From an uncultured bacterium (lineage in GTDB: Bacteria > Babelota > Babeliae > Babelales > Vermiphilaceae): a stretch of 64,000 nucleotides of DNA. The first letter of the stretch is position 1. The number at the start of each line of letters is the position of its first letter. Location: NCBI GenBank assembly GCA_963698045.1, contig OY969115.1, positions 843,467-907,466 of the forward strand. Reading direction: 5' to 3'. A model generated the notes under the pieces. That model had not been told where the DNA came from. It searched no databases and saw only the letters and a program-made list of their open reading frames with translations. This document shows, piece after piece, positions 9,469 through 53,366 of this stretch. A program made the position numbers and the translations under genes.

Positions 9469-10578
9469 TTACAACAAATACAACTTCTTCACGACCACCT
9501 CCACCCCCATCTTCTCCTTCCCATCCTTTGGCACCCGTTCCAAAATAGCCAACACCCGCACTTCTACCTTACGGTATATCCCAATAGAAAGCACAGAAAA
9601 ATAACGCGGTTCAAAAGTAGTACTTAATAATGGCTCTATCCCTTTTGGCAATGCAGCAAACGGCTTGCCCTGCCATTGATTAATACCCTTATCCCAATCT
9701 TGCGCCCATGATGCATATGGCTTAAAATTTTTCTCTAATGCTTTAATAAGCTCCTTACGACCTTGCACATCTCCCGCTTGTGTTGTTTTTAGCCCCAAGG
9801 CAGCTGCAAGAGAGTTAGACAATAACCACGGGTCAACATGGGTTTGGTCATTGTACACTGTAAATATATCTGTTAAATAGACCGGCATTTTAGCTTGTGG
9901 TGCTTGCGGTGCCGCAACCTCTTTTTTGCTACGGGACGGTTCAAAATACAGCTGATCTTTAAACACCTCAAATTCTGGAATGTACAATAATTCTGTTACC
10001 TCTTGAATTGGTTGCCCTTCAGCTTTATAAAATTTATCTAATGCTGCCACTATATTGCCGGTTCCTGATTGTTTTACAATGCCCGCAAGTAACGTTTCTA
10101 ACTGCTTTTTAAGTCCACCATCTTTATCTTTGGCACCCTTAAATTCTTTCTTTTTAAAATCATAAAAATTATTAGGATTAATTTTGCCCTCTTCACTCGT
10201 GATAATAATTTCTATGGTGCCATCTATGCCATCAGAAGCCTCTTTTAAGTTAAAGGTCTGCATTCTATTTAAATAGGGCAACACCTCTTCTAAAAAATAG
10301 ACGGTTCTTTTATCTAACGGAGACTGTTTTTCTTGGCCTGGTTGTGCAGCATCTGGTGCCTTTTTTTTATCTACCGGTTTTCCTGCTAAGCGTGCCGCAG
10401 CAATCTGAACTCCTGATAACGCAAGCATTTTCGCCTTCTGACGGGAAATAGCAATAGTAAATTCTGGTACAGCATAATATCCCCGGTTAACCATGTACGT
10501 AATAAGTAACATAGCCGCAGAAATAATAAGCATGGTAAGAACAATAATGTAACCGGGTTTGTTTGTAGATTGGTTCAT
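9469..10578 (-). CDS. GspK-like minor pseudopilin (type II secretion)
   Basis: N-terminal hydrophobic anchor GYIIVLTMLIISAAMLLITYM without the pilin Glu5. GspK-like EEGKINPNN motif. Size 369 aa. Same strand as the gspF-J-like genes. Confidence 0.6.
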   Translation of the reverse strand: MNQSTNKPGYIIVLTMLIISAAMLLITYMVNRGYYAVPEFTIAISRQKAKMLALSGVQIAAARLAGKPVDKKKAPDAAQPGQEKQSPLDKRTVYFLEEVLPYLNRMQTFNLKEASDGIDGTIEIIITSEEGKINPNNFYDFKKKEFKGAKDKDGGLKKQLETLLAGIVKQSGTGNIVAALDKFYKAEGQPIQEVTELLYIPEFEVFKDQLYFEPSRSKKEVAAPQAPQAKMPVYLTDIFTVYNDQTHVDPWLLSNSLAAALGLKTTQAGDVQGRKELIKALEKNFKPYASWAQDWDKGINQWQGKPFAALPKGIEPLLSTTFEPRYFSVLSIGIYRKVEVRVLAILERVPKDGKEKMGVEVVVKKLYLL

Positions 10579-10738
10579 AATATTTATTTTTTTGGATTAT
10601 TAGGTACAGAGCTGTAATTACCATACTACAAGCATAGGCAAACTACCAAGTTTTTACGCACCCCAATAAGTCTCAATAAAAAAAGGACCTGCTCAACACA
10701 TATCCTTTTCTTATAACGGTACATTTAAAATTAAATAA

Positions 10739-12202
10739 TTACTTCTTTATAAAAACCTGCACCATGCCTTTTTCTTCCAAGCGCTTTTGCAACCAAGCTG
10801 GTAACTTCTTAAGTAATGCTATTGCTTCTGGCTGGTACAATTTTAACGGTTCAGGTTTTTTTGGCTTACCGTTCTTGTCTTTATATGCTTTACTTTCAAA
10901 AATTTTATGCAACAACAAGAAGGTTTTTACCCCATCCGTATTTACATACAGTGATTGTATAAAGGTCGGTAGTTCAACAAAAGGAATAAGATTCCATAAT
11001 CTAACAGCGCCATCTGCAGATGCAGATGCAACGGTATTTCCAGCTGGGCTAAATGCAACTGAATATATTGGTGAAAGCTTAATATCTCCATTTAAGAATA
11101 AGGTAGCAATAAGTTTTTTACTAGAAACATCCCACAATTTAATGGTGCCATCCCAAGATCCAGAAATCAGTGTTTTACCGTTTGGACTAAAAGCTACAGA
11201 ATGTACATCTTTCGTATGCCCTTTTAAAGTATAAAGCAATTTCTGATCCGCTACATCCCACAGCTTAATGGTCTTATCATTTGATCCAGTAGCTATTATT
11301 TTACCATCCGGACTAAATGCTACTGAATTAACTATACTAGAATGACCATGCAAAGTGGTAATAAGTTGTTGAGAAGAAAGATCCCATAACTGAACGGTCA
11401 TTTGATAATTAGCAACCGCAATTTTTTTACCATCGGGGCTAAACGCTACTGATAATGCAGTTGCACCATGCAAAATTGCAACATTTTGTTTACTTGCAAT
11501 ATCCCATAATCTAACAGTATCATCATGTGAACCAGAAGCCAGCTGCTTACCATCGGGGCTAAATGCTACTGAATTTACATAACCGGTATGACCACTTAAA
11601 GTGGCAATAGGTTTGTTACTGGAAATATTCCAAAGTTCAATAGTAGTATCATGGTTACCACCAGCAACCATTTTACCATCTGGACTAAATGCTATTGAGT
11701 TTATTATATGGCCAAATGTTCCTACTGTATTTCCCAATTTTAACGTAGTAATAGGCTGTTTATTAAAAACATCAAATAATTTAAGGCCCAAATCTCCATG
11801 ACCTCCATAAGCAAGAATTTTGCCATCTGGACTAAATGCTACTGAATATACAGTACTGCCCTGACCTGGTAACATTATTGGATTTATATCTATAAGAGAT
11901 TTAATCTGTTGTATAAAAGTTGAATTCTGTCTTACACTTTGTGTTGCTGGATCAAATAAATACTGCCCAATAACACGCCTAAAAGCTTCTGCTTTTTCAA
12001 CATTGTCTAACTCTGGATAAAATGGCTTTCCTGTCTCCTGACTTGGTAATTTAACCTCTGCAAGCCCTTTAACAATTTCTTGTATCTGCTGTTCAATAGC
12101 AGTCTGATCACTTTCTTTGGATTCCATTGCAGACACGGATAATGGCACCACTATTGCCAACCCTGCAAAAATAAGAATTTTTTTAATTGTATTCATGGTC
12201 AA
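10739..12202 (-). CDS. Signal-peptide WD40 repeat protein (7 blades), paralog 1
   Basis: Signal peptide MTMNTIKKILIFAGLAIVVPLSVSA. Seven SVAFSPDGK...LWD units. Termini near-identical to the 12225..13706 product. Confidence 0.85.
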   Translation of the reverse strand: MTMNTIKKILIFAGLAIVVPLSVSAMESKESDQTAIEQQIQEIVKGLAEVKLPSQETGKPFYPELDNVEKAEAFRRVIGQYLFDPATQSVRQNSTFIQQIKSLIDINPIMLPGQGSTVYSVAFSPDGKILAYGGHGDLGLKLFDVFNKQPITTLKLGNTVGTFGHIINSIAFSPDGKMVAGGNHDTTIELWNISSNKPIATLSGHTGYVNSVAFSPDGKQLASGSHDDTVRLWDIASKQNVAILHGATALSVAFSPDGKKIAVANYQMTVQLWDLSSQQLITTLHGHSSIVNSVAFSPDGKIIATGSNDKTIKLWDVADQKLLYTLKGHTKDVHSVAFSPNGKTLISGSWDGTIKLWDVSSKKLIATLFLNGDIKLSPIYSVAFSPAGNTVASASADGAVRLWNLIPFVELPTFIQSLYVNTDGVKTFLLLHKIFESKAYKDKNGKPKKPEPLKLYQPEAIALLKKLPAWLQKRLEEKGMVQVFIKK

Positions 12203-12224
12203 CTTCCCTTTAATAATATTTTAC

Positions 12225-13706
12225 TTAATTAGTTGTTTTGCTCGGGTTATCTTCCTGCTTTTTCTTTATAAAAACCTGCACCATGCGTTTTTCTTGCAAA
12301 CGCTTTTGCAACCAAGCTGGTAACTTCTTAAGTAATGCTATCGCTTCCGGCTGGTACAATTTTAACGGTTCAGGTTTTTTTGGCTTACCGTTCTTGTCTT
12401 TATCTGCATTACTCTCAAAAATTTTATGCAACAATAAGAAAGTTTTTAAACCATCCGTATTTGCATATAGCGATTGTATAAATAAAGGTAGTTCAACAAA
12501 AGGAGTAAGATTCCATAATCTAATAAAGCCATCCTTAGATCCAGAAGCAAGAGTTTTACCATCTGGACTAAATGCTACTGAAAATATAGCTTCGGTATGA
12601 CCAGGTAAGGTAACATTAAGTTGTTTACTATTTACATCCCATAATTTAATGGTCCCATCGAAAGATCCAGATGCAAGAATTTTGCCATCTGGACTATATG
12701 CTACTGAAGTTACAGACTTTTTATGACCCATTAAAGTAGCAATAGGTTTTTTACTACTTACGTCCCATAAATTAATAGTGGCCCCCGATCCAAAAGCAAC
12801 TGTTTTGCCATCTGGACTAAATACTACTGAACTTTGTAAAGAATGAGCATTTATAGTATCAATAAGTTTTTTACTACTCACACCCCATAAATTAATAATA
12901 TTATCCACAGATCCAGAAGCAAGAGTTTTGCCATCTGGACTAAATGCTACTGAAAGTACCGGCCGAGTATGACTATTTATAGTGGCAATAGGCTGTTTAC
13001 TACTCACATCCCATAATTTAATAGAATCATCAGATCCAGAAGCCAATATTTTGCCATCAGGACTAAATACTACTGAATATACCTTTTCAGTATGGCCAGG
13101 CAAGGTAGCATTAAGTTGTTTACTACTTACATCCCATAATTTGATGGTCTTATCCAAAGATCCAGAAGCCAATGTTTTGCCATCTGGACTAAATGCTACT
13201 GAATATACCGTTTCAGTATGGCCAGGCAAAGTAGCAATGAGCGTATTTTTTTTGGTATCCCATAACTTAATGATACCAAGGGGATATCCCGAAGCCAATG
13301 TTTCGCCATCTGGACTAAACGCTACTGAACGTACTGAAAAGACGTCGTAACGTTCTGAAAAGACGTTGTATTTTAAATTTGTTGAATTTATATCTATAAG
13401 AGATTTAATCTGTTGTATAAAGGTTGAATTCTGTCTTACACTTTGTGTTGCTGGATCAAATAAATATTGCCCAATAACACGTCTTAAAGCCTCTGCTTTT
13501 TCAACATTATCTAACTCTGGATAAAACGGCTTTCCCACAAACTCACTTGGTATTTTGACATCTGCCATCCCTTTTACAATTTCTTGTATCTGCTGTTCAC
13601 TAGCAGTCTGATCACTTTCTTTGGATTCCATTGCAGACACAGATAATGGCACCACTAATGCCAACCCTGCAAAAATAAGAATTTTTTTAATTGTATTCAT
13701 GGTCAA
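12225..13706 (-). CDS. Signal-peptide WD40 repeat protein (7 blades), paralog 2
   Basis: Same signal peptide and N- and C-terminal modules as paralog 1. Seven SVAFSPDGKTLASGS..IKLWDV units. Confidence 0.85.
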   Translation of the reverse strand: MTMNTIKKILIFAGLALVVPLSVSAMESKESDQTASEQQIQEIVKGMADVKIPSEFVGKPFYPELDNVEKAEALRRVIGQYLFDPATQSVRQNSTFIQQIKSLIDINSTNLKYNVFSERYDVFSVRSVAFSPDGETLASGYPLGIIKLWDTKKNTLIATLPGHTETVYSVAFSPDGKTLASGSLDKTIKLWDVSSKQLNATLPGHTEKVYSVVFSPDGKILASGSDDSIKLWDVSSKQPIATINSHTRPVLSVAFSPDGKTLASGSVDNIINLWGVSSKKLIDTINAHSLQSSVVFSPDGKTVAFGSGATINLWDVSSKKPIATLMGHKKSVTSVAYSPDGKILASGSFDGTIKLWDVNSKQLNVTLPGHTEAIFSVAFSPDGKTLASGSKDGFIRLWNLTPFVELPLFIQSLYANTDGLKTFLLLHKIFESNADKDKNGKPKKPEPLKLYQPEAIALLKKLPAWLQKRLQEKRMVQVFIKKKQEDNPSKTTN

Positions 13707-13744
13707 CCTTTACAGAATTAAGAATTACTCAAATTAACGGTAAA

Positions 13745-14153
13745 ATAAAACCCACTTACATATATCCTAATTGATATATCCTAATTGAAATAATACCAAA
13801 TACTGTCCCATTAAATCAATAGTTTTTATAATGATTATTTAAGGTTAAATTGGCACAAAAAAGCCTTAGAATAGGGATTAAGATTTTTACTCAGTTAAAG
13901 TTCAGATTCTGCATGCTAAAAGCAGAAGAAGGCAGGTTAACCTCTAACCCCATGCCAGAAGGTTGCCCATAGATGGGTATGGATCTGTAAAGATAAAAAA
14001 CACTCTGCACAAATCGCGTTAGGACTTGCAACTGCCAAGATTTGGATACTGGATATTTATAAAAAAAAGAGACATGCGTTTTACAACCCTGTTCACCCAG
14101 CGCTAAGTCCAAGGTTTTGGAATAGCTTATTTGGTAAATTTGTAAAATAACAC
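13745..14153. repeat. Intergenic repeat, copy a (upstream of WD40 paralog 2)
   Basis: Aligns with 16745..17095 and 17705..17960. Shared core AATCAATAGTTTTTATAATGATTATTTAAGGTTAAATTGGCACAAAAAAGCCTTAGAAT and downstream blocks. Confidence 0.65.
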
Positions 14154-14186
14154 TAAAAAGAGAGGCACTCATTAGCATGTCTCTCT
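14154..14186 (-). terminator. Rho-independent terminator candidate after the 14221..14943 gene
   Basis: Minus-strand AGAGAGACA / TGCCTCTCT stem (8 of 9 pairs) followed by UUUU, 35 nt after the stop. Confidence 0.45.
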
Positions 14187-14220
14187 TTTGATTCTCTCTT
14201 CTATTTTAAAAATAACTCTT

Positions 14221-14943
14221 TTATTTTCTTTCCTTTACCTCTAACACCGGTTTAAAATCATCTTTAATAGTTATGTTTACAGACCAGTCTTTGTTTCTAT
14301 TTATAAGTTTCATAGATTCTGATGATTTGGATTTGAAGCTTGGTAAAGTACTACTTAATATAAGTTTATCTCCTTCTACTTTTAAATAGTAGGTGACATA
14401 TTCTTCTGATCCGCCACCAGATTTAATTTCTGATCCGCCATCAGATTTAATTTTTGAAATTAGAGCTAGAGTAAGAATTTTAAATGTTCCAGCTTTTAAA
14501 CTATCTGTTTGATCTTTCTTAAGAGCAAGTATTTCTTTTTTAAATATTTCACCGGGTTTAATTTGTTTATGTTCTAGTGAAATTCCTGCATGAATAGTAT
14601 TTTCTTCTGGCATGTCTTTTAATAACTCTTTGAAATATTCTGATCCCTGCATTACACAAACGGGATCCCCGAAAGGGTCGCGCACACAGCGAAATCCTGC
14701 CAAACTTGGATCTGACGAAAAGCCTTGCAACATTGGAGTTGACGACTTGCCTCCAATTGGCGACTGGCTCTTTTGAATATATGCAACCTCTAAATCACCA
14801 TGCTCTAGGGTAGTTTTTACACTTCCACCACCTCCGCTGCCAGGCTTCAGTTCATTTTTAATACTTTCAACATAAATTTGACCTTCTGCAAACCCCATCC
14901 CAACGCTGGTTAAAAGCACCAGTAATGATAAAAACCTCTTCAT
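14221..14943 (-). CDS. Small secreted protein, family member D (240 aa)
   Basis: Signal peptide MKRFLSLLVLLTSVGMGFA, whose first 16 residues are identical to those of the 17100..17690 product. Shares GQIYVESIKNE and C-terminal KDWSVNITIKDD motifs with three paralogs. Confidence 0.7.
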   Translation of the reverse strand: MKRFLSLLVLLTSVGMGFAEGQIYVESIKNELKPGSGGGGSVKTTLEHGDLEVAYIQKSQSPIGGKSSTPMLQGFSSDPSLAGFRCVRDPFGDPVCVMQGSEYFKELLKDMPEENTIHAGISLEHKQIKPGEIFKKEILALKKDQTDSLKAGTFKILTLALISKIKSDGGSEIKSGGGSEEYVTYYLKVEGDKLILSSTLPSFKSKSSESMKLINRNKDWSVNITIKDDFKPVLEVKERK

Positions 14944-14979
14944 AGATATTCTCCTTATAAATAATTAAATTAAGCCCCA

Positions 14980-15504
14980 TTATGATTTTTTAGCTCTCAC
15001 CACAAACTTAACATCAGAATCATTTACAGTTATTTCAACTTCCCAGTTTTTCGTTAGTAAATCCTTATTTTTAAATATCGGATTAGGAAATCCTAATATC
15101 TCTGGAGTTACCAATACCAGTTGATTGTTTTTCGAGTTGTTTTCATCTTTCTTGAATTCTAAATAAAAATCCGCCGTATCACTTTTACCTTTATTTTTAA
15201 TTTTAATCCTTATAACAAATCTGTAAGCTTTCTTACTATTTGTCTCATTATTATTTAAATCAATAGCCAAAATTTCTGTTTCAAATTTTTTTGTTTCGTT
15301 TGGTAGAATAGTGAATTCTTTGGGTGTAAACACCCTAAAGATAGGTGCATTTTCGCTTTCCTTAATATCATCAGTAAACGTATGCCCAGGTGTTGTATTA
15401 TTGGTAACACTCTTAACATAAACCATCCCTTTTTTTAGCTCCTCTGCAAAAAGCATGCCCATGTTGCTCATCAATAATGTCAGTAAAACCATATATTTCT
15501 TCAT
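14980..15504 (-). CDS. Small secreted protein, family member C (174 aa)
   Basis: Signal peptide. GMVYVKSVTNNTTPGH and C-terminal KNWEVEITVNDS motifs shared with paralogs. Confidence 0.7.
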   Translation of the reverse strand: MKKYMVLLTLLMSNMGMLFAEELKKGMVYVKSVTNNTTPGHTFTDDIKESENAPIFRVFTPKEFTILPNETKKFETEILAIDLNNNETNSKKAYRFVIRIKIKNKGKSDTADFYLEFKKDENNSKNNQLVLVTPEILGFPNPIFKNKDLLTKNWEVEITVNDSDVKFVVRAKKS

Positions 15505-15570
15505 AAAATCTTCCTAATAAATAATTTAATTTATCTATCCTTCATGACCTAACTTAGTCCAAGTCGCTCA

Positions 15571-15771
15571 TCAAAATCCTTCGTCTCGATTCCACACTAC
15601 CGTTTTTTTGACTTCCTTTATTTTTTTTTCTGCTGCTGCAATTCTCTTACTTTTTGCTTTCTTTGCTTGCTTCTTTGCCGTGCTAGCTTTATTTTCTTCC
15701 GAAAACATATTCGTGTTAATACCTGTTAAAAGCATGAGTGATGATAACAATGATACAAATCTGCTTTTCAT
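15571..15771 (-). CDS. Small secreted Lys-rich peptide (66 aa)
   Basis: Signal peptide MKSRFVSLLSSLMLLTG and a basic AKKQAKKAKSKR region. Short, so less certain. Confidence 0.45.
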   Translation of the reverse strand: MKSRFVSLLSSLMLLTGINTNMFSEENKASTAKKQAKKAKSKRIAAAEKKIKEVKKTVVWNRDEGF

Positions 15772-15806
15772 ACTATTTTCCTTTTTTTCAAATTTAAAAG
15801 ACTAAA

Positions 15807-16127
15807 TTACTTTTTAAGGTGTACAGCCCTTTTTCTCTTACGACCCTCAGTTCCAGCACTCTTAACAGATCCAGATTGCTTAGATTTCAATAATGCTTCT
15901 TGTGCAGCTAGATCTTCCACTGGTCCTGTTGCCGCAGGTGCAGCAAATGCAGGCATAACCCCAGCTTTATCACCTCCCCAATCAAGCATAACCCCAGCTT
16001 TATCCCAGATAGGTCCTTCAGCCTGATCATAATCAGAACTGGGTTGTGCAATTTCTTTAACTGCTGTACCTTGCAATAGTACACTGCTAGTTAAAAAAAC
16101 CAGCAAAATAACTAAATATTTCTTCAT
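15807..16127 (-). CDS. Small secreted hypothetical protein (106 aa)
   Basis: Signal peptide MKKYLVILLVFLTSSVLLQG. Internal DKAGVM duplication. Basic tail. Confidence 0.55.
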   Translation of the reverse strand: MKKYLVILLVFLTSSVLLQGTAVKEIAQPSSDYDQAEGPIWDKAGVMLDWGGDKAGVMPAFAAPAATGPVEDLAAQEALLKSKQSGSVKSAGTEGRKRKRAVHLKK

Positions 16128-16185
16128 AAGAAATTCTCCTTTTATAAATAATTAGAAGCATTCATTGCTCATTTTTTATGAATAT

Positions 16186-16722
16186 CTATCGCTTAAATAT
16201 CGAGGGTATAATTGAATCGGTAGACATTACTTTTAACTGAGGACCATTGTTAGTGAAAACTATATTCACCAACCAGTCTTTTTCTCTGAGTTTTGCATCT
16301 TCAAATGATCCCTCTATTTTTTCTTTCTCAAAGGTTTTTTCCAAATTATTTACGTTTTGCAAAATCAATTTATTATCTTTGATATCTATATTATAAATTG
16401 CGAAATATAAGAAGGGACCTGATGGGTATTGAACAAGATAATTTTGCGCTATGCTGAATTCCACAACATTTTTTTTCTCTTGATTCAAGTTAAGAACAAG
16501 TAGTGGCGGACTGAACTGGTATACTTCATCCTTATTAAGAGTAATTAATTTAGATCCACCTTCTTTAATCACAATAAAATTTGTTGCAGGTATCTTAATA
16601 CCTTTAGCAACTTCATGTCCCTTTGTTGTTCTATTTTCAACGCTAAAAACATAAATAAGCCCTTTTGCAGATAAGGGAACTACATAAGTCAAAAACATAA
16701 ATAAAATTAAATATCTCTTCAT
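16186..16722 (-). CDS. Small secreted protein, family member B (178 aa)
   Basis: Signal peptide. GLIYVFSVENRTTKGH and C-terminal KDWLVNIVFTNN motifs shared with paralogs. Confidence 0.7.
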   Translation of the reverse strand: MKRYLILFMFLTYVVPLSAKGLIYVFSVENRTTKGHEVAKGIKIPATNFIVIKEGGSKLITLNKDEVYQFSPPLLVLNLNQEKKNVVEFSIAQNYLVQYPSGPFLYFAIYNIDIKDNKLILQNVNNLEKTFEKEKIEGSFEDAKLREKDWLVNIVFTNNGPQLKVMSTDSIIPSIFKR

Positions 16723-16744
16723 TGCGGCTCTCTCTTTTTAAACA

Positions 16745-17095
16745 ATTTCATATCCTAATTGTAATAATAACAAAGTAAGGTCTCCAAAATCAATAGTTTT
16801 TATAATGATTATTTAAAGTTAAATTGGCACAAAAAGGCCTTAGAATATGAATTAAGACTATATACTCAGTTAAGCTTCATAGTATGCATACCAAAAGGTA
16901 AAGAAGGTAGATTACCCTCCTCTAGTTTGCGGCAAACATGCCAAAAGGCGTGCCTAAAGATGATATGGATCTGTACACTCTACATAAAGCGCACGAATAA
17001 CTTGCAACTGCCAAAATTTGGATTATGGATATTTATAAAAAAAAAGAGACATGCTTTTTACACATGCCTCTTGAATTTTGTAAGTGATGTGATGC
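16745..17095. repeat. Intergenic repeat, copy b (upstream of 16186..16722)
   Basis: Aligns with copies a and c. It includes the terminator of the upstream gene. Confidence 0.65.
17036..17071 (-). terminator. Rho-independent terminator after the 17100..17690 gene
   Basis: Minus-strand AGAGGCAUG / CAUGUCUCU 9-bp stem (one G-U pair) followed by a 9-nt U-run. Confidence 0.6.
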
Positions 17096-17099
17096 ACAC

Positions 17100-17690
17100 T
17101 TAATTGTTACTGAGAGGTCTTACTTTTATCTCTGTCTTTTTGTCTTTAATAACTAAATCAACTGCCCAGTCGTTGTTCATGAGATCTATACTTTTAGATT
17201 CAGATGATTTTATAGTGGCAGGTGCTTTAAATATTAATTTATCACCTTCAACTACTAATCCACCAAATGAATTATCATCAAATGTTGCACCTATATCACT
17301 AGCTATAATCTCTGAAGTCTGAACTCTCATCTGAATGGCAAATGTTCCATTTTGTAAACTATTTGTTAGACCTTCATTTAAATCAAGTGCAAGTATTTTC
17401 TTTCTAAAGGTACTTCCTTGTTGTACATTATATTGTTGTTGTACATTATATTGTTGTACATTATATTTCGAGGGTTTCTTCTGAGGATTTTTTTTCGAGG
17501 GTCTCTTCTGAGCTAAAGTACTTCCTCCAGCATTAAAGTTAGTATAAATCCTTATGTCGTGTTCCCCCTCTGCTAAAGTACTTCCACCCCCGCGGATCTC
17601 ATTCTGCACACTTTCAACATAAATACGTCCTTTTGCAGAAACCATCCCAACACTGGTTAAAAGCACCAGTAATGATAAAAACCTCTTCAT
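17100..17690 (-). CDS. Small secreted protein, family member A (196 aa)
   Basis: Signal peptide MKRFLSLLVLLTSVGMVSA. GRIYVESVQNE and C-terminal NNDWAVDLVIKDK motifs. Internal QQYNVQ micro-repeats. Confidence 0.7.
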   Translation of the reverse strand: MKRFLSLLVLLTSVGMVSAKGRIYVESVQNEIRGGGSTLAEGEHDIRIYTNFNAGGSTLAQKRPSKKNPQKKPSKYNVQQYNVQQQYNVQQGSTFRKKILALDLNEGLTNSLQNGTFAIQMRVQTSEIIASDIGATFDDNSFGGLVVEGDKLIFKAPATIKSSESKSIDLMNNDWAVDLVIKDKKTEIKVRPLSNN

Positions 17691-17704
17691 AAGAGTCTCC
17701 TTTA

Positions 17705-17960
17705 TTATATAAACAACTAAAGCATATCTCCTAATTGTAATAATAACAAAGCAAAGCCTCTAAAATCAATAGTTTTTACAATGATTATTTAAAACTAAAT
17801 TGGCACAAAAAGGCCTTAGAATGGGAATTTGGAGTATTACTCAGTTGGGCTTAATAGTATGCATGCTAAAAGGTGAAGACGGCAGCTTGTCCTCTAACCC
17901 CGCAAACATGCCAGAAGGCGGCCCATTAGACGGTCTAAAACGGGGGCCAATATGGGTTCC
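17705..17960. repeat. Intergenic repeat, copy c (overlaps the 3' end of the gspJ-like gene)
   Basis: Aligns with copies a and b. Here the distal part is in frame as the last ~40 codons of the 17841..19022 ORF. Confidence 0.65.
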
Positions 17961-19022
17961 CTCACGAATTCCAACTACTCCTGAAGCGCCAACATTTTTT
18001 GGAAATGCACCCGCAATTTGATGTGGCGGTCCGGAACTAACCGGAACATCTATTGAAGCCGGCTGCCCCTGTGCTTTATCTGTTTTGCTTGGTGTTGTTT
18101 CTGGTTTTTTTGCACTAGGCGGTGGTGGTGTTGGTGACTTTGGAGCAGATAATTGAGATGGTGGTAAAATTGGCACAGTAAATTTCCAGGTACTGTCCCG
18201 CTGATATGCGGCATCCCACAATACTAACGTAAATTCTGCAAAACGGGGCAATGGTGGCATGTCAGATTTTTGTTGGTCCTCTTTTTTTTGCTGACCCCAT
18301 TCTTTTGCTGTTTTATATTCTATCTTCTGCTCTTTAGGTTCTTCCTCTTTTTTTTCTCCCGGCTTTGCTGCAGCTTGTTTTTTTACTGGAACATAATAAT
18401 AGAGTACGGAAAGATTTTTTATGCCATCCAGCAGTTCATATGATCTGAACTCCTGTTTTTCTACCGGTATTTTAGGATCAAAAAATTCATACGCTAATTC
18501 ATCACCCTCTTGTCGCAGTAATTGGTAGGAATTTTTGTGCGCAGGGTCTGGCTGCAATCTATATACCATGCGCGCTAATTTAGGTTGTGGACGCCCCGCT
18601 TTTTTACTCCAGTACACCGGCATTGGATTATTGCTAATAAAGGTAAGCGTTTGCAAATTGGCACCTTTATTTTCACTAAAGAAAATTTTATCTACGGTTG
18701 GCTTTGGTTTTTCTGGCTCTTTCTTTTCTTCTTTTTTCTCTTCTTTTTTTGGCTCTTTTTTGTCACCCTCTTTTGCCTGTTCTTCTTTGGGTTCTTCTGC
18801 TTTTGCCGGTGGAGTTACCGGAACAAAGGCACCCATAAGATCATGTTCTAACTGATTCTGCGCTAACATAACACGGGATGTTTTATGAATAACGTTATCA
18901 AGATTTTTTTTGGTACGGTTTATTTGATATAAAGAAGTAAATAACGCAGCTAATAACATTCCGGAAATTACGGTTCCAATAAGCAGTTCTAATAAAGTAA
19001 AACCGGGAGTAGTATGCTTCAT
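17841..19022 (-). CDS. GspJ-like pseudopilin with a Lys/Glu-rich insert and a Pro-rich tail
   Basis: Prepilin-type N-terminus MKHTTPGFTLLELLIGTVISGMLLAALF. Position after the gspI-like gene. Low-complexity EEPKEEQAKEGDKKEPKKEEKKEEKKEPEKPKP insert. Confidence 0.6.
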   Translation of the reverse strand: MKHTTPGFTLLELLIGTVISGMLLAALFTSLYQINRTKKNLDNVIHKTSRVMLAQNQLEHDLMGAFVPVTPPAKAEEPKEEQAKEGDKKEPKKEEKKEEKKEPEKPKPTVDKIFFSENKGANLQTLTFISNNPMPVYWSKKAGRPQPKLARMVYRLQPDPAHKNSYQLLRQEGDELAYEFFDPKIPVEKQEFRSYELLDGIKNLSVLYYYVPVKKQAAAKPGEKKEEEPKEQKIEYKTAKEWGQQKKEDQQKSDMPPLPRFAEFTLVLWDAAYQRDSTWKFTVPILPPSQLSAPKSPTPPPPSAKKPETTPSKTDKAQGQPASIDVPVSSGPPHQIAGAFPKNVGASGVVGIREGTHIGPRFRPSNGPPSGMFAGLEDKLPSSPFSMHTIKPN

Positions 19023-19408
19023 TGTTTTATCTTTTCCGGTTTAAAAAGAAAATACAACGCCCGTTCTTTTTGCGGCCTATTTTCTTGCCGCCAACTATAC
19101 GTCACTTGCTCACGGTACATATCCGGAATTCCTTTAAGTGCAGACGCATCCCCAACGGGGCGTAGTTCATACGTAAACCCCTTCTCTTGCACTGTTGCTT
19201 GTTTTGCATCTTCTGGTTGCGTGCGGTGCATGGTTGCCAAAAACTGTTCAGCTTCTAATAATCTGCGCAAATGGTTTGCACGCTGAACTACTGATCGCAC
19301 TACTTGTGTTTGCAAGGCAAATAGTGGTGTTAGCACAATGCCCATTATGGCAACTGCAAGCATTACTTCTATAAGCATTTGACCAGAATTATTTTTGGAA
19401 TTCATCAT
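19019..19408 (-). CDS. GspI-like minor pseudopilin
   Basis: Start chosen at MMNSKNNSGQMLIEVMLAVAIMGIVL (prepilin-like G-x-x-L-I-E). Small size. 4-nt overlap with the downstream gene. Confidence 0.5.
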   Translation of the reverse strand: MMNSKNNSGQMLIEVMLAVAIMGIVLTPLFALQTQVVRSVVQRANHLRRLLEAEQFLATMHRTQPEDAKQATVQEKGFTYELRPVGDASALKGIPDMYREQVTYSWRQENRPQKERALYFLFKPEKIKQ

Positions 19409-19952
19409 ATATTTTAAACTGGGCCGTAAAAGGATTAAGTACCAAACCAACCGGATACGGCTTGCCTGCTTTTTTATCTTTAGTATCTACCAGATTAATA
19501 ATAACTTCTTGGGTTAAACCACCGGGCATAACAAAAAACCATGTAGAAAAATTTCTGGGATCATTATACCGTTTCATTTCATCAAAACGTTCAATTAAAA
19601 AATTCTTAATCACGTACCGGTCAGGAAATTTCATAATGGCATGGGCAGATTTTACCGGCACAGAAATTGGGTTACCATCACGATCTTTTTGTCCCGTTAC
19701 TTGTTGAACAGAAACAGTATTGTTATTTTTTTTAAAATCAAAAAGTACTTTAGTTGGCTTACCACTCACCATGGCCTGGCGCCATGCAAAACCAACTACG
19801 GTATTAAGCTGAGCCAAAAACTGCTCGCGCTCTTGACGGGGTTTGCGTGCTCCCAAATTAGGAAGCATCATAGAAGCAATAATACCAACCACCAATAACG
19901 CAAGCAGCAGTTCTATCAAGGTAAATGCGGGTGTATTATATTTCCCAGGCAT
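19389..19952 (-). CDS. GspH-like minor pseudopilin
   Basis: Prepilin N-terminus MPGKYNTPAFTLIELLLALLVVGIIASMM. 187 aa. Located between the gspG-like and gspI-like genes. Confidence 0.6.
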   Translation of the reverse strand: MPGKYNTPAFTLIELLLALLVVGIIASMMLPNLGARKPRQEREQFLAQLNTVVGFAWRQAMVSGKPTKVLFDFKKNNNTVSVQQVTGQKDRDGNPISVPVKSAHAIMKFPDRYVIKNFLIERFDEMKRYNDPRNFSTWFFVMPGGLTQEVIINLVDTKDKKAGKPYPVGLVLNPFTAQFKIYDEFQK

Positions 19953-20403: not shown

Positions 20404-21618
20404 TTAAACGCCAATACTTTGACTTAATTGCATCATTGGACTACCTATTGCATAGATAATAAAGCCAACCACTAGTGCCATAACTACTAACATTATAGGG
20501 CTAATTAAACTGGTGGCATTATCTATAAGTTCATTCAATTCAACTTCATAATTTTGTGCTACCAAGAGCAACATGCTGTCCAGCTGTCCGCTCTCTTCAC
20601 CTGTTTTAATTAAATGAATTGCAATAGGGGGGAACATATTTGTTTGTTTTAGATACTGCGCTATTTTACCCTGTTTTATTATTTTATCACGCGCATCAGA
20701 GAGTGTAGATGCTAAAATTCGATTATCTATTACCTTTACTACAATATCTAATGCTTCTGCTAAATTTACTCCGCCTTCTAATAACAACCCCAGCGTATAA
20801 CTAAACTGCACCACCGCATTAGTTTTGGTAACATACTTAATAACTGGCATACGAACTTTAAAGGTGTCCCACATGCGCCCACCAGAAGCAGAATTCTTCC
20901 AGTACCTAAATGCAATAATAGCAACAATTGGTATACCCAAAAAGAGATAAAAATATTTAGTGAGAGCGTCACCGGCACCAACTACAAAACGGGTTGCCCA
21001 CGGTAATTTGGTACCAATAGAAGTAAAGATGTCTGACATTTGGGGAATTACTACGGTAAGTAATACCACCACCACTAATGCCACAATAATTAATTGAATG
21101 AGCGGATATTGGAACGCACCTCTAATTTTTTTTGCGATCTCATCACGCCGTTCTAAATAACTGGTAAGGCGATCCAAAATAACTTCTAACCGGCCACTTG
21201 CTTCCCCCGCGCGCACTAGTTGAACGTAAATAGTGTCAAATATACTGGGATATTTTTTTAATGCTTCTGCAAAAGATGAACCTTGTTTAATGTCATCTTT
21301 AATAGTCACTACAATACTGCGCAATGTACCAGTAAACTGTTCTGTTAAGAGTTCCAGTGCTTCTACTAAGGGAATGCCAGACTTAAGTAATACCGCCAAT
21401 TGTTTGGTAAACAGAATTCTATCTTTGGGTTTAATTCCGCGTCTCAAAAGACGTTCAAAAAAACCACCTTGTGATGCTTGCGTGGTAGTGGTAACAGAGA
21501 TAACATACATACCCTGTTTAGAAAGCAATTCTTTAACGCTCGCTTGGCTGGGGGCATCTATAATGCCTTTTATCTTTTTGCCATCTTTGCCATACGCTTC
21601 ATAAGAATATAAAGCCAT
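20404..21618 (-). CDS. gspF: Type II secretion / type IV pilus platform protein (GspF/PilC family)
   Basis: ~400 aa, duplicated T2SS-F domain, three TM segments. N-terminus MALYSYEAYGKDGKK is typical. AAGGA RBS before the ATG at 21618. Confidence 0.85.
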   Translation of the reverse strand: MALYSYEAYGKDGKKIKGIIDAPSQASVKELLSKQGMYVISVTTTTQASQGGFFERLLRRGIKPKDRILFTKQLAVLLKSGIPLVEALELLTEQFTGTLRSIVVTIKDDIKQGSSFAEALKKYPSIFDTIYVQLVRAGEASGRLEVILDRLTSYLERRDEIAKKIRGAFQYPLIQLIIVALVVVVLLTVVIPQMSDIFTSIGTKLPWATRFVVGAGDALTKYFYLFLGIPIVAIIAFRYWKNSASGGRMWDTFKVRMPVIKYVTKTNAVVQFSYTLGLLLEGGVNLAEALDIVVKVIDNRILASTLSDARDKIIKQGKIAQYLKQTNMFPPIAIHLIKTGEESGQLDSMLLLVAQNYEVELNELIDNATSLISPIMLVVMALVVGFIIYAIGSPMMQLSQSIGV

Positions 21619-21744
21619 CCGCTTTTCCTTACAAAAAGCCACTAAAGTGGCAATGCTCTCATTTTCTCATTGAATAAATTTACTATTTCATGATAGGCTA
21701 TGCTGATGTTATATGTAACCACTGTATCACAAAGGGGATCTAAT

Positions 21745-51977: not shown

Positions 51978-53345
51978 TTAATATTGTTTGTTTTGACTGT
52001 ATAAAACAACTGCTTTGAATGCTTCCCAATTATTGGTAATTAGCGGACAATTACTAAATACTTCCGGTTGTAATGCACTTATCTTATTGTCACCTAAATG
52101 TACTTCTTTCAACTGGGGACAATTACTAAATATTCCCGGTTGTAATTCATTTATCTGATTGTAAGATAACCAAACTACATTCAACTGGGGACAATTACCA
52201 AATACTCCCGGTTGTAACACCCTTATCTGATTATTATATAACCAAACTGTATTCAACTTAGGACAATTACTAAATATTCCCGGTTGTAATCCACTTATCT
52301 GATTATTAATTAAACTAATTTCTTTCAGCTTGGGACAATTACTAAATATTCCCGGTTGTAATGCCCTTATCTGATTGCAAGATAAATCAACTATTCGCAA
52401 CTGAGGACAATTACTAAATACCCCTGGTTGTAAAATACTTATCTGATTTCCACCTAAATTAACTTGTCGCAACTGCGGATAATTACAAAATACTCCCGGT
52501 TGTAATGCACTTATATAATTGTTAGATAAATCAATACTGATGATTTTCGATCCATGTTTTTCTAAGAAATCTGCTAATCCTTCAATATCAGATAAGCCAA
52601 TATCAGAAAGATTAAGAATAGAGCCCTGTATTATTTTTTTTGTTGCATCATTGTACTTTGACCAATCTTTGAATGAAATATTAGTTTTAACCGGTGTCTT
52701 TCCATCTGAACTCACTGGTATTTTTAAATCTTTATTGAAGATCGTTAACCATGATACAACTGCTGATACAATTTCTGGCGATATATCTGGATTTTTTGCA
52801 AATTCTATTAGATCAAAACTTTGGTCTTCTTTTATCAACAAGGCAAGCGGTTCTGCAATAGCAGATAGGGCTTTTCTTTCTAATCCCCATAACAATCCTT
52901 TTTCCATAAGGTTTATTAATTCTTGTGCATCTTGTAGAGACAATAAGTTTGCATCCAATTCTTCTTGTATTTCCTCAGTGCTTAATCCAAGCTTTGCACA
53001 GATATTATCTTTATTTTGTGCTAATACTGATCCCGTAAATAACGCAAGATCTTTTGAACTAAAGTCTGGTAGTGGAACATAGTTATTTTCTTGCTTTGCA
53101 AGCATATTTTTTGATTGTTGCCACTGCACAGGAACCAGATCCTTTGCGATCCTAAATTTCTTGCGGTCATTAGTGATAAACCTTAGGCAATTAAGGCAAC
53201 TATCCTGCCGAACGGTGCTACAGGTTGAGCAATAAATAGTTTCTGCCTGATCTTCTTGCTTTAATGCAGTAACAATGTTTGATTCCATTGCGTGCACCGC
53301 AATGTTGGCAATCGCTAAAACAATAAAAAATAGTATCTTTTTCAT
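51978..53345 (-). CDS. Signal-peptide LRR protein with a Cys4 knuckle (LRR-2)
   Basis: Start at MKKILFF (GGAG RBS). CSTC-x6-CLNC. Nine or more 24-residue LRRs (LQPGVFSNCPQL). Confidence 0.8.
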   Translation of the reverse strand: MKKILFFIVLAIANIAVHAMESNIVTALKQEDQAETIYCSTCSTVRQDSCLNCLRFITNDRKKFRIAKDLVPVQWQQSKNMLAKQENNYVPLPDFSSKDLALFTGSVLAQNKDNICAKLGLSTEEIQEELDANLLSLQDAQELINLMEKGLLWGLERKALSAIAEPLALLIKEDQSFDLIEFAKNPDISPEIVSAVVSWLTIFNKDLKIPVSSDGKTPVKTNISFKDWSKYNDATKKIIQGSILNLSDIGLSDIEGLADFLEKHGSKIISIDLSNNYISALQPGVFCNYPQLRQVNLGGNQISILQPGVFSNCPQLRIVDLSCNQIRALQPGIFSNCPKLKEISLINNQISGLQPGIFSNCPKLNTVWLYNNQIRVLQPGVFGNCPQLNVVWLSYNQINELQPGIFSNCPQLKEVHLGDNKISALQPEVFSNCPLITNNWEAFKAVVLYSQNKQY

Positions 53346-53366
53346 ACATAACTCCATTATTGATTA

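What the first reader, a model, noticed from the sequence alone, without database searches (positions are those of the whole stretch)
10739..13706. Tandem signal-peptide WD40 propellers with near-identical termini and diverged blades
Both proteins have seven SVAFSPDGK-type blades, a composition more typical of eukaryotic or cyanobacterial WD40 proteins. Both carry a cleavable-looking signal peptide, which is unusual for WD40 proteins. The first ~105 residues and the last ~85 residues are almost identical between the paralogs, and the corresponding DNA is too. The propeller blades differ substantially. This pattern fits either gene conversion homogenising the ends or diversifying selection on the binding surface. 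Candidate exported host-interaction proteins.
Basis: partly seen in the sequence, partly recalled or inferred. Interest (0 to 1): 0.6.

Follow-up and report, generated by a model that had tools for sequence, protein, structure and literature searches.

The report
Mosaic tandem secreted WD40 paralogs
Two neighbouring genes of an uncultured Babeliales (Dependentiae) parasite encode signal-peptide-bearing seven-bladed WD40 proteins whose ends are kept alike by recombination while the propellers differ. They are the youngest pair of a roughly 31-gene family private to this lineage, which is an ordinary kind of gene family for this phylum.

Summary
Genes A (10739-12196, minus strand) and B (12225-13700, minus strand) each encode a Sec-type signal peptide, an ~82-aa N-module, seven SVAFSPDGK-type WD40 blades and an ~80-aa C-module. 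The ends are 92% identical in DNA and the propellers 65%. The breakpoints fall at the domain borders.

Synonymous divergence also differs: dS is 0.17 and 0.28 in the ends and 0.77 in the propeller. Codon identity at unchanged residues is 0.91 and 0.85 against 0.62 (p=9e-8). Selection alone cannot explain this, so recombination is needed. The most likely form is gene conversion confined to the ends. Gene B's blades have also been homogenised among themselves. Diversifying selection could not be shown (omega is below 1 and the sites are saturated).

The pair belongs to a family of about 31 genes in this 1.73-Mb genome that share the C-module. That module has no Pfam, PDB-sequence or Foldseek match and is almost absent from 40 relatives.

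The pair sits in a ~7-kb insertion inside the type II secretion pseudopilin operon. Signal peptides on eukaryote-like repeat proteins are normal in Dependentiae. The blades are of the bacterial type.

The likely function is exported host-binding proteins; this was not tested.

The parts
12225..13700 (-). Gene B (491 aa from the ATG; the ORF from the TTG reaches 13706): signal peptide, N-module, 7-blade WD40, C-module and an 11-aa tail
10739..12196 (-). Gene A (485 aa from the ATG; the ORF from the TTG reaches 12202): same architecture, ending right after the C-module
13632..13700 (-). B signal peptide, residues 1-23, MNTIKKILIFAGLALVVPLSVSA | ME
   Evidence: hand-applied -3/-1 rule; no SignalP
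12128..12196 (-). A signal peptide, residues 1-23
13386..13631 (-). B N-module (residues 24-105), helical, with no known family; part of the 5' high-identity tract (92.4% nt)
11882..12127 (-). A N-module (residues 24-105)
12501..13385 (-). B propeller (residues 106-400), seven blades that are homogenised among themselves (codon identity 0.78; B2-B3 90% nt)
10982..11881 (-). A propeller (residues 106-405), seven more degenerate blades (codon identity among blades 0.57)
12261..12500 (-). B C-module (residues 401-480): helix-helix-strand-helix-helix-strand, confident model, no fold match
10742..10981 (-). A C-module (residues 406-485)
12203..12224 (-). 22-nt spacer between the B stop and the A ORF, carrying the AAGGGAAG ribosome-binding motif for A. 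The pair is probably one transcript.
10579..17840 (-). ~7.2-kb lineage-specific insertion between the gspJ-like gene (17841-19022) and the gspK-like gene (9469-10578). It holds four small secreted paralogs and the WD40 pair. In relatives G009 and G006 the two pseudopilin genes abut.

Best explanation
A and B are the most closely related pair of a lineage-specific family of about 31 genes in an uncultured Babeliales (Dependentiae) bacterium.

Architecture. Each protein is built as Sec signal peptide, N-module, seven-bladed WD40 propeller, C-module.

Origin of the mosaic. The pattern of alike ends and different middle comes from recombination, not from selection alone. Most likely the two tandem paralogs have old, separately evolving propellers. 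Gene B's propeller was in addition homogenised blade-to-blade. The 5' tract (signal peptide plus N-module) and the 3' tract (C-module) were later overwritten by two separate gene-conversion events that stopped at the domain borders. Conversion is tolerated in the end modules because they do the same job in every family member. It is not retained in the propeller, which carries each protein's specificity.

Inferred function, not shown here. The proteins cross the inner membrane by Sec and are cut after VSA by signal peptidase I. They leave the cell through the type II secretion system, the only dedicated secretion machine I found in the genome. The pair is inserted into that system's pseudopilin operon. 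Each propeller then binds a different host (protist) protein with its top face, while the end modules provide a shared targeting or docking function.
For: Mosaic:
- Nucleotide identity is 92.4 / 65.1 / 92.0% for the N tract, propeller and C tract. The breakpoints lie at codons 109 and 409 (chi2 141).
- dS is 0.175 / 0.767 / 0.281.
- The same codon is used at unchanged residues in 87/96 cases (N), 93/149 (propeller) and 61/72 (C); Fisher p=8.9e-8. The four-fold sites give p=0.004.
- Trees make A and B sisters at 99/99 (N-module) and 100/100 (C-module), but only 73/76 with branch lengths 0.73 and 1.13 for the propeller.
- Propeller identity between A and B is 57%, no higher than to other paralogs (40-61%). 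N-module identity is 87% against at most 44% to others, and C-module identity 91% against at most 68%.

Order of events: dS among B's own blades (0.34 in the core, 0.50 overall) exceeds the A-B dS of the ends.

Precedent in the same family: F1125671 against F1128023 has dS 0.58 (N), 0.56 (propeller) and 0.11 (C).

Family:
- The C-module profile hits the own genome 36 times, in about 31 reading frames. It gives one weak hit in 40 relatives and 40 proteins among 1.84 billion.

Export route:
- The signal-peptide features are shared by all members.
- The genome has two SPase I genes and two secretins, and neither VirB4 nor FHIPEP.
- GspF and pseudopilin genes flank the pair.
- T2SS is core in TM6 (PMC4776705), and signal peptides on repeat proteins are usual in the phylum (PMC6561590).

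Binding face: the hypervariable blade positions 2, 3, 4, 6, 22 and 24 are the known top-face positions of WD40 blades (the assignment to the top face is from established WD40 structural knowledge).

A distant relative carries a RING finger after the C-module (PF13639, 38.4 bits against a cut-off of 27.3). This points to action in a eukaryotic cell.
Against: - No orthologues from a sister species were available, so neither the direction nor the date of the conversions can be fixed. L011 is the same strain at 99.7% identity.
- Blades of A and B show no positional correspondence (67.5% against 66.5% nt). Part of the propeller dS may therefore come from aligning non-orthologous blades, which would favour the rival reading of a recent duplication plus blade turnover.
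- The dS estimates rest on 80-290 codons.
- Export, cleavage, T2SS dependence and host binding are all inferred.
- Family members in other organisms do not lie near T2SS genes, so the operon position may be incidental.
Confidence: 0.55

Rival explanations
1. The whole gene was duplicated recently, at the age of the ends (dS about 0.2). The propeller of one or both copies was then rebuilt by blade-to-blade conversion, blade duplication and loss. This erased positional orthology and inflated the apparent divergence. On this reading the ends are simply the unscrambled part.
For: - There is no positional blade correspondence between A and B.
- B's blades share codons with each other (0.78) more than with A's blades (0.62-0.65). 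B2 and B3 are 90% identical in DNA.
- F680047 shows that strong concerted evolution of blades happens in this family (89% mean nt identity among blades).
- The best propeller tree still pairs A with B.
Against: - Synonymous divergence among B's own blades (0.34-0.50) is larger than the A-B divergence of the ends (0.17-0.28). B's present propeller therefore looks older than the common ancestor of the ends.
- A's blades show no homogenisation (0.57), yet they are just as far from B's.
- No blade of A is more than 78% identical to any blade of B.
Confidence: 0.25
2. The two genes have the same age along their whole length. Strong purifying selection keeps the ends alike, and relaxed or diversifying selection lets the blades diverge.
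For: Omega is lower in the ends (0.29 and 0.18) than in the propeller (0.49). Variation among blades concentrates at top-face positions.
Against: Selection on the protein cannot explain the 3-4-fold lower synonymous divergence. Nor can it explain why unchanged residues use the same codon in 91% and 85% of cases in the ends but only 62% in the propeller (p=9e-8). Even the conserved core strands have dS 0.71.
Confidence: 0.03
3. Functional rival: the proteins stay with the bacterium. They would be periplasmic or surface scaffolds, or parts or cargo adaptors of the pseudopilus or pilus encoded around them, rather than released host-binding effectors.
For: The pair is inserted between the gspJ-like and gspK-like genes on the same strand, next to four small secreted paralogs. 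The C-module ends in a strand plus a basic tail and can occur in tandem copies, as anchoring modules sometimes do.
Against: The island is absent from relatives that keep the pseudopilin genes adjacent. Homologues elsewhere lie in unrelated contexts. About 31 paralogs with hypervariable faces fit a target-recognition repertoire better than a machine part. One relative carries a RING finger.
Confidence: 0.15
4. The hydrophobic N-terminus is not a cleaved signal. Either translation starts at the conserved inner Met (Met24), giving a cytoplasmic protein, or the segment is an uncleaved anchor.
For: A Met directly follows the hydrophobic segment in every family member. Gene callers started several database homologues at that Met (P0009, P0019, P0024 and P0026).
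Against: - The upstream 23 codons are kept open in all paralogs, with n-, h- and c-region features.
- An AAGG motif precedes Met1 and none precedes Met24.
- The h-region has only 13 residues with a Pro, which is too short for an anchor.
- The same motif follows about 190 signal-like N-termini genome-wide.
Confidence: 0.05

Closest known systems
Signal-peptide-bearing eukaryote-like repeat proteins of Dependentiae/TM6 (ankyrin, WD40, F-box, LRR; Chromulinavorax destructans, Babela massiliensis)
   Same: Same phylum-level lifestyle. The genome is small, with Sec plus T2SS as the apparent export route. There are large lineage-specific expansions of protein-interaction repeats carrying ordinary signal peptides, presumed to act on the protist host (PMC6561590, PMC4776705).
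   Different: Here the repeat is WD40 rather than ankyrin. It is framed by two conserved end modules that have no Pfam model and no fold match. That framing has not, as far as I could find, been described.
Bacterial highly repetitive WD40 propellers (PDB 5yzv, Thermomonospora; PDB 2ymu, 'highly repetitive propeller structure', recalled as from Nostoc punctiforme)
   Same: Seven-bladed propeller with consensus-like SVAFSPDG...LWD blades. Identity is 46%, target TM-score 0.97 and rmsd 0.9 A.
   Different: Those propellers are domains of large cytoplasmic multidomain (STAND/kinase-type) proteins, as I recall. These are small exported proteins with their own end modules.
Fungal NLR WD40 domains (Podospora HNWD/NWD: het-e, het-d, het-r)
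   Same: Blades are kept similar within a gene by concerted evolution, while a few top-face positions vary freely.
   Different: Gene A shows no such homogenisation, and omega above 1 was not demonstrable for this pair. The organism, localisation and presumed role are different.
Eukaryotic WD40 substrate receptors with a terminal adaptor box (WSB1 with SOCS box; F-box/WD40 proteins)
   Same: A propeller plus a short conserved helical terminal module. The motif PLxLYQPEAI...LPxWLQKxL superficially recalls a BC box plus Cul box.
   Different: No Pfam SOCS_box, F-box or U-box hit appears even at E<=10. The BC-box consensus fails at its sixth position. The confident C-module model has no Foldseek match in the PDB. 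The pair is not a member.
Multigene families with conserved ends and variable cores maintained by segmental gene conversion (for example Anaplasma msp2/p44, Neisseria pilE/pilS)
   Same: Near-identical 5' and 3' segments flank a diverged central, specificity-bearing segment, and the family shows mosaic divergence among its members.
   Different: Both genes here are complete and probably expressed. There is no sign of an expression site with silent donor cassettes or of programmed variation.

Membership tests
WD40 repeat propeller (Pfam PF00400) | Repeated WD40 units scoring above the Pfam gathering cut-off | tested here: met
   A scores 250.7 bits in 6 stretches and B 276.2 bits in 7 stretches, against a cut-off of 27. 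Seven blade anchors are present in each.
WD40 repeat propeller (Pfam PF00400) | Closed seven-bladed beta-propeller fold | tested here: met
   The AlphaFold2 model of B has pLDDT 83.8, with 93-98 in the blades. The top Foldseek hit is 5yzv_B, E 1.3e-33, target TM 0.97.
Sec/SPase I secretory signal peptide | Basic n-region, 10-15-residue hydrophobic h-region, small residues at -3 and -1, no lipobox Cys | tested here: met
   MNTIKK / ILIFAGLA(I/L)VVPL / SVSA|ME, applied by hand. The same layout occurs in all family members. Two SPase I genes are present in the genome.
Sec/SPase I secretory signal peptide | Actual cleavage and export | not testable with these tools
Type II secretion substrate | T2SS-dependent release of the folded periplasmic protein (no sequence signature is known) | not testable with these tools
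   Only context is available. The pair lies inside the pseudopilin operon. The genome has two secretins and neither VirB4 nor FHIPEP.
SOCS-box / BC-box adaptor | Match to the Pfam SOCS_box model, or the BC-box consensus [APST]Lxxx[CSA]xxx[AILV] followed by a Cul box | tested here: not met
   No Pfam hit at E<=10 for A or B, nor at E<=1 for 23 family C-modules. Position 6 of the candidate box is Q, D or H. The consensus is quoted from memory.
SOCS-box / BC-box adaptor | Three-helix SOCS-box fold | tested here: not met
   The C-module model (pLDDT 91.7) has no PDB match; the best E-value is 3.4. Small domains are hard for Foldseek, so this is a weak negative.
F-box / U-box / RING E3 modules | Pfam match in A or B | tested here: not met
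   There is none in A or B. Only the distant relative P0030 has zf-RING_2.
Gene-conversion mosaic between paralogs | Significantly lower synonymous divergence in bounded tracts than in the rest of the same gene pair | tested here: met
   dS is 0.175 and 0.281 against 0.767. The codon-identity Fisher test gives p=8.9e-8 and the chi2 scan gives breakpoints at codons 109 and 409.
Gene-conversion mosaic between paralogs | Phylogenetic proof with orthologues (paralogs within a species grouping together in the tracts only) | not testable with these tools
   No sister-species genome was found. The genus has a single representative, and the only other contig found is the same strain.

The most novel reading that the evidence does not exclude
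The family is an evolvable repertoire of secreted 'adaptor' proteins. The N-module and C-module meet at the propeller's closure. The C-module is a new fold that can be multiplied and, in a relative, is followed by a RING finger. Together the two modules would form one undescribed docking unit for a host machine such as a ubiquitin ligase, while blade turnover re-aims the propeller at new host targets and gene conversion keeps the docking unit uniform.

Linked to this, the signal-peptide class ending in [A/G/S/C] | Met-[Glu/Asp/Gln] would mark host-destined cargo. About 190 proteins in this genome carry it, including every family member. After cleavage it leaves a Met-acidic N-terminus that is stable in eukaryotic cytosol. 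One of the two tandem SPase I paralogs might process this class.
Probability: 0.12. Interest if true: 0.7.

Novelty: new member of a known kind. Interest (0 to 1): 0.35.

Why it matters
Dependentiae are widespread, almost uncultured parasites of protists. How they act on their hosts without type III or IV injection systems is unknown.

This pair gives a clean, quantified example of how their effector-like repertoires evolve. The steps are tandem duplication, end-restricted gene conversion and blade-level turnover within a propeller.

It also defines a compact, confidently folding ~80-aa C-terminal module of unknown fold shared by about 31 exported proteins. That module is a concrete handle for finding the family's common partner. 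None of this changes what is known about the kind of system, so the value is descriptive rather than conceptual.

Tried and rejected
1. SOCS-box or BC-box reading of the C-module. This was my own lead from the motif PLxLYQPEAI..LPxWLQK. It was rejected: no Pfam hit, no PDB profile hit and no Foldseek match in PDB or BFVD.
2. Recent replacement of a propeller from another paralog. blastn of both genes against the genome found no stretch at 80% identity or more that was longer than 76 nt outside the pair. The propeller tree still weakly pairs A with B.
3. Word-indexed homologue search with the C-module region found nothing.
A single-module scan found no relative.
5. Looking for orthologues to date the conversions. 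The only related contig (L011, ENA ERZ25039473) is the same strain, 99.7% identical with indel errors.
6. Promoter and terminator scans gave no more sites than shuffled sequence.
8. A large-sample Pfam census of the 'A|ME' signal-peptide class was abandoned because the sequence list was too long to pass. Only 10 proteins of each class were scanned.
9. dN/dS above 1 among B's blades at hypervariable positions (1.57) is not used as evidence. The positions were chosen by their variability and dS is saturated.
Full report
**What is there.** The window lies at 843467-907466 of a single-contig 1.73-Mb genome. The closest Lon protease relatives are uncultured MAGs, one of them titled 'Candidatus Babeliales bacterium', at 62-70% identity. 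Earlier notes also call the genome Dependentiae-like.

On the minus strand, two intact ORFs lie 22 nt apart, at 10739-12202 (gene A) and 12225-13706 (gene B). The real start is most likely the ATG two codons further in, at 12196 and 13700. It follows an AAGG motif, and nothing like a ribosome-binding site precedes the inner Met24.

Each protein (485 and 491 aa) has four parts:
- a 23-residue N-terminal segment, MNTIKK-ILIFAGLA(I/L)VVPL-SVSA|ME;
- an ~82-residue N-module;
- seven blades of the SVAFSPDGK...LWD type;
- an ~80-residue C-module. Gene B adds an 11-residue tail.

Pfam WD40 scores are 250.7 bits for A and 276.2 bits for B. An AlphaFold2 model of B, built with a 14-sequence family alignment, is a seven-bladed propeller. 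Its mean pLDDT is 83.8, with 93-98 in the blades, 75-85 in the core of the N-module, 83-90 in the C-module and below 50 for residues 1-34.

**Checking the observation.** The proteins are 66% identical overall. DNA identity is 92.4% over codons 1-109, 65.1% over codons 110-409 and 92.0% over codons 410-496. A two-breakpoint maximum chi-square scan places the breaks at codons 109 and 409, which are the N-module/blade 1 and blade 7/C-module borders. Differences are 34.9% inside and 7.7% outside (chi2 141).

The N-terminal segment has the features of a cleavable SPase I signal: two Lys in the n-region, a 13-residue h-region with Pro at -6, Val at -3, Ala at -1 and no Cys. I could apply this rule only by hand. 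The genome encodes two SPase I paralogs.

**Is the mosaic selection or recombination?** By Nei-Gojobori, dS/dN are 0.175/0.051 for the N tract, 0.767/0.376 for the propeller and 0.281/0.049 for the C tract. I then restricted the comparison to residues that are identical in both proteins:
- The same codon is used in 87/96 cases (N tract), 93/149 (propeller) and 61/72 (C tract). Fisher's test of ends against propeller gives p=8.9e-8.
- Four-fold sites are identical in 48/61 cases in the ends and 42/77 in the propeller (p=0.004).
- Even the conserved core strands of the blades have dS 0.71.

Protein-level selection cannot produce this, so the segments have different histories.

Module trees agree. 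A and B are sisters with 99/99 support (N-module) and 100/100 support (C-module) on near-zero branches. For the propeller they are joined only at 73/76, on branches of 0.73 and 1.13 substitutions per site.

Propeller identity between A and B (57%) is no higher than to other paralogs (40-61%). N-module identity is 87% against at most 44% to others, and C-module identity is 91% against at most 68%.

**Blade level.** Blade i of A is no closer to blade i of B (67.5% nt) than to B's other blades (66.5%). B's blades resemble one another: 76% nt identity on average, with B2-B3 at 90%. Codon identity at shared residues is 0.78 among B's blades. The corresponding value is 0.57 among A's blades and 0.62-0.65 between the two genes. 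So B's propeller has undergone concerted evolution and A's has not.

Synonymous divergence among B's blades (0.34 in the core, 0.50 overall) is larger than the A-B divergence of the end tracts. For this reason I place the homogenisation of the ends last.

No donor for either propeller exists elsewhere in the genome: no stretch at 80% identity or more is longer than 76 nt.

Other tandem members show other mosaics. For example, F1125671 against F1128023 has dS 0.58 (N), 0.56 (propeller) and 0.11 (C). Segmental conversion is therefore a habit of this family.

My reading is two end-restricted conversions between older tandem paralogs (about 0.55). The main rival is a recent duplication followed by blade turnover (about 0.25).

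Diversifying selection could not be shown. Omega is 0.49 over the propeller and 0.70 at the six most variable blade positions, with saturated dS.

**The family.** A tblastn search and a profile of 23 C-modules find the module 36 times in this genome, in about 31 reading frames. Nearly all of these have WD40 or WD40-like blades in front, and about 12 have a recognisable N-module. The members include:
- tandem arrays at genome positions 1125671-1132369 (5 genes), 910873-916201 (3 genes) and 622893-641379 (10 genes with a divergent module);
- one protein with four tandem C-modules and one with two.

Among 40 genomes of the same family and order, only one gives a weak hit (E 2e-5). Among 1.84 billion representative proteins, only 40 match at E<=1e-3. 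Some of these come from other uncultured organisms, in unrelated gene neighbourhoods.

One relative (P0030) has a RING finger after the C-module (38.4 bits against a cut-off of 27.3). Others carry repeats of the module without a propeller.

Neither end module matches Pfam or PDB sequences. The C-module folds confidently on its own (pLDDT 91.7; helix-helix-strand-helix-helix-strand). It has no structural match in PDB or BFVD; the best E-values are 3.4 and 1.1. My SOCS-box lead is therefore rejected.

Across 87 family blades, entropy peaks at positions 2, 3, 4, 6, 22 and 24 of the blade unit. From general WD40 structural knowledge, these are top-face positions.

**Surroundings.** GspF (20404-21642) lies upstream on the same strand, followed by GspG/H-like (19389-19952) and GspI/J-like (17841-19022) pseudopilin genes. 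A weak GspK-like gene (9469-10578) lies downstream. The GspK-like gene is conserved in all 25 genomes searched. In G009 and G006 it directly abuts the GspJ-like gene.

The ~7.2 kb between these two genes here holds four small secreted paralogs and the WD40 pair. It is therefore a lineage-specific insertion into the pseudopilin operon.

A ~185-nt unit upstream of B recurs upstream of two other secreted-protein genes in the island. Promoter and terminator scans were uninformative.

The genome has two secretins and two SPase I genes, and lacks VirB4 and FHIPEP. This fits published work in which T2SS is the core secretion system of TM6 (PMC4776705).

**Comparison with what is known.** WD40, F-box, LRR and ankyrin proteins have been noted in TM6 genomes as presumed host-interaction factors (PMC4776705). 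In Chromulinavorax destructans, 44% of CDS and 78% of the 98 ankyrin proteins carry signal peptides (PMC6561590). A signal peptide on a WD40 protein is thus typical of the phylum.

The blades are of the bacterial highly repetitive type: 5yzv and 2ymu are 46% identical, against about 33% for WDR5.

This genome is the richest in WD40 among the 25 compared. It has at least 150 repeat hits (capped), against 0-102 elsewhere.

What is specific here is the pair of conserved end modules of unknown fold and the well-resolved recombination mosaic. I file it as a new member of a known kind.

**Limits.** The following are inferred, not shown: export, cleavage, T2SS dependence, host targets, and the direction and date of the conversions. 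No sister-species orthologues were found.

Noticed in passing
whole genome; in the window e.g. genes at 51978-57576 (-) and both WD40 genes: There is a distinct signal-peptide class ending in [A/G/S/C] | Met-[Glu/Asp/Gln]. Of 670 signal-like N-termini (ORFs of 100 aa or more), 193 carry it. Met is about 7 times more frequent at that place than any other residue. In a sample of 10 non-WD40 members, 8 had no Pfam match, 1 was an ankyrin protein and 1 a phosphoribosyltransferase. A sample of 10 signal-like proteins without the Met included the periplasmic ZnuA, a GDPD and a glycosyltransferase. The Met-acidic mature N-terminus might serve stability or sorting in the host.
   Followed up: partly
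genome C1:1469625-1470443 and 1471606-1472487 (outside the window): Two tandem signal peptidase I paralogs (339- and 343-aa frames) in a reduced genome. One could be specialised for the Met-acidic class of signal peptides.
   Followed up: no
genome C1:680077-681498 (outside the window): Family member F680047 has seven blades with 89% mean and 96% maximum nucleotide identity to each other. They differ almost only at top-face positions, which is a strong case of concerted evolution with hypervariable sites.
   Followed up: partly
genome C1:622893-641379 (outside the window): A ten-gene tandem array of 570-630-aa signal-peptide proteins with divergent WD40-like blades ('SSDNKTLF...IWNVS') and a divergent version of the same C-module.
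   Followed up: partly
genome C1:913721-916201 and 1279250-1281091 (just outside the window): The C-module can be multiplied. There are four full tandem copies plus a partial one after one propeller, and two copies after another.
   Followed up: no
window 13767-13951, 16741-16925, 17717-17901: A ~185-nt intergenic unit (62-78% identical) recurs immediately upstream of three minus-strand secreted-protein genes, including gene B. It is possibly a shared promoter or leader.
   Followed up: partly
window 14221-17690: Four small signal-peptide paralogs without Pfam matches share the island with the WD40 pair. Their signal peptides end in FAE or SAK and so lack the Met.
   Followed up: no
locus L011 (ENA ERZ25039473 contig_148817): A 4.2-kb metagenome contig carries the same locus at 99.7% identity with 8 indels. 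The indels split both genes into fragments in the public gene calls, most likely long-read assembly errors rather than pseudogenes.
   Followed up: partly
protein P0030 (other organism): A signal peptide, WD40 blades, the C-module and a RING-H2 finger in one protein (PF13639, 38.4 bits). This is an E3-ligase-like architecture linked to this family's C-module.
   Followed up: partly
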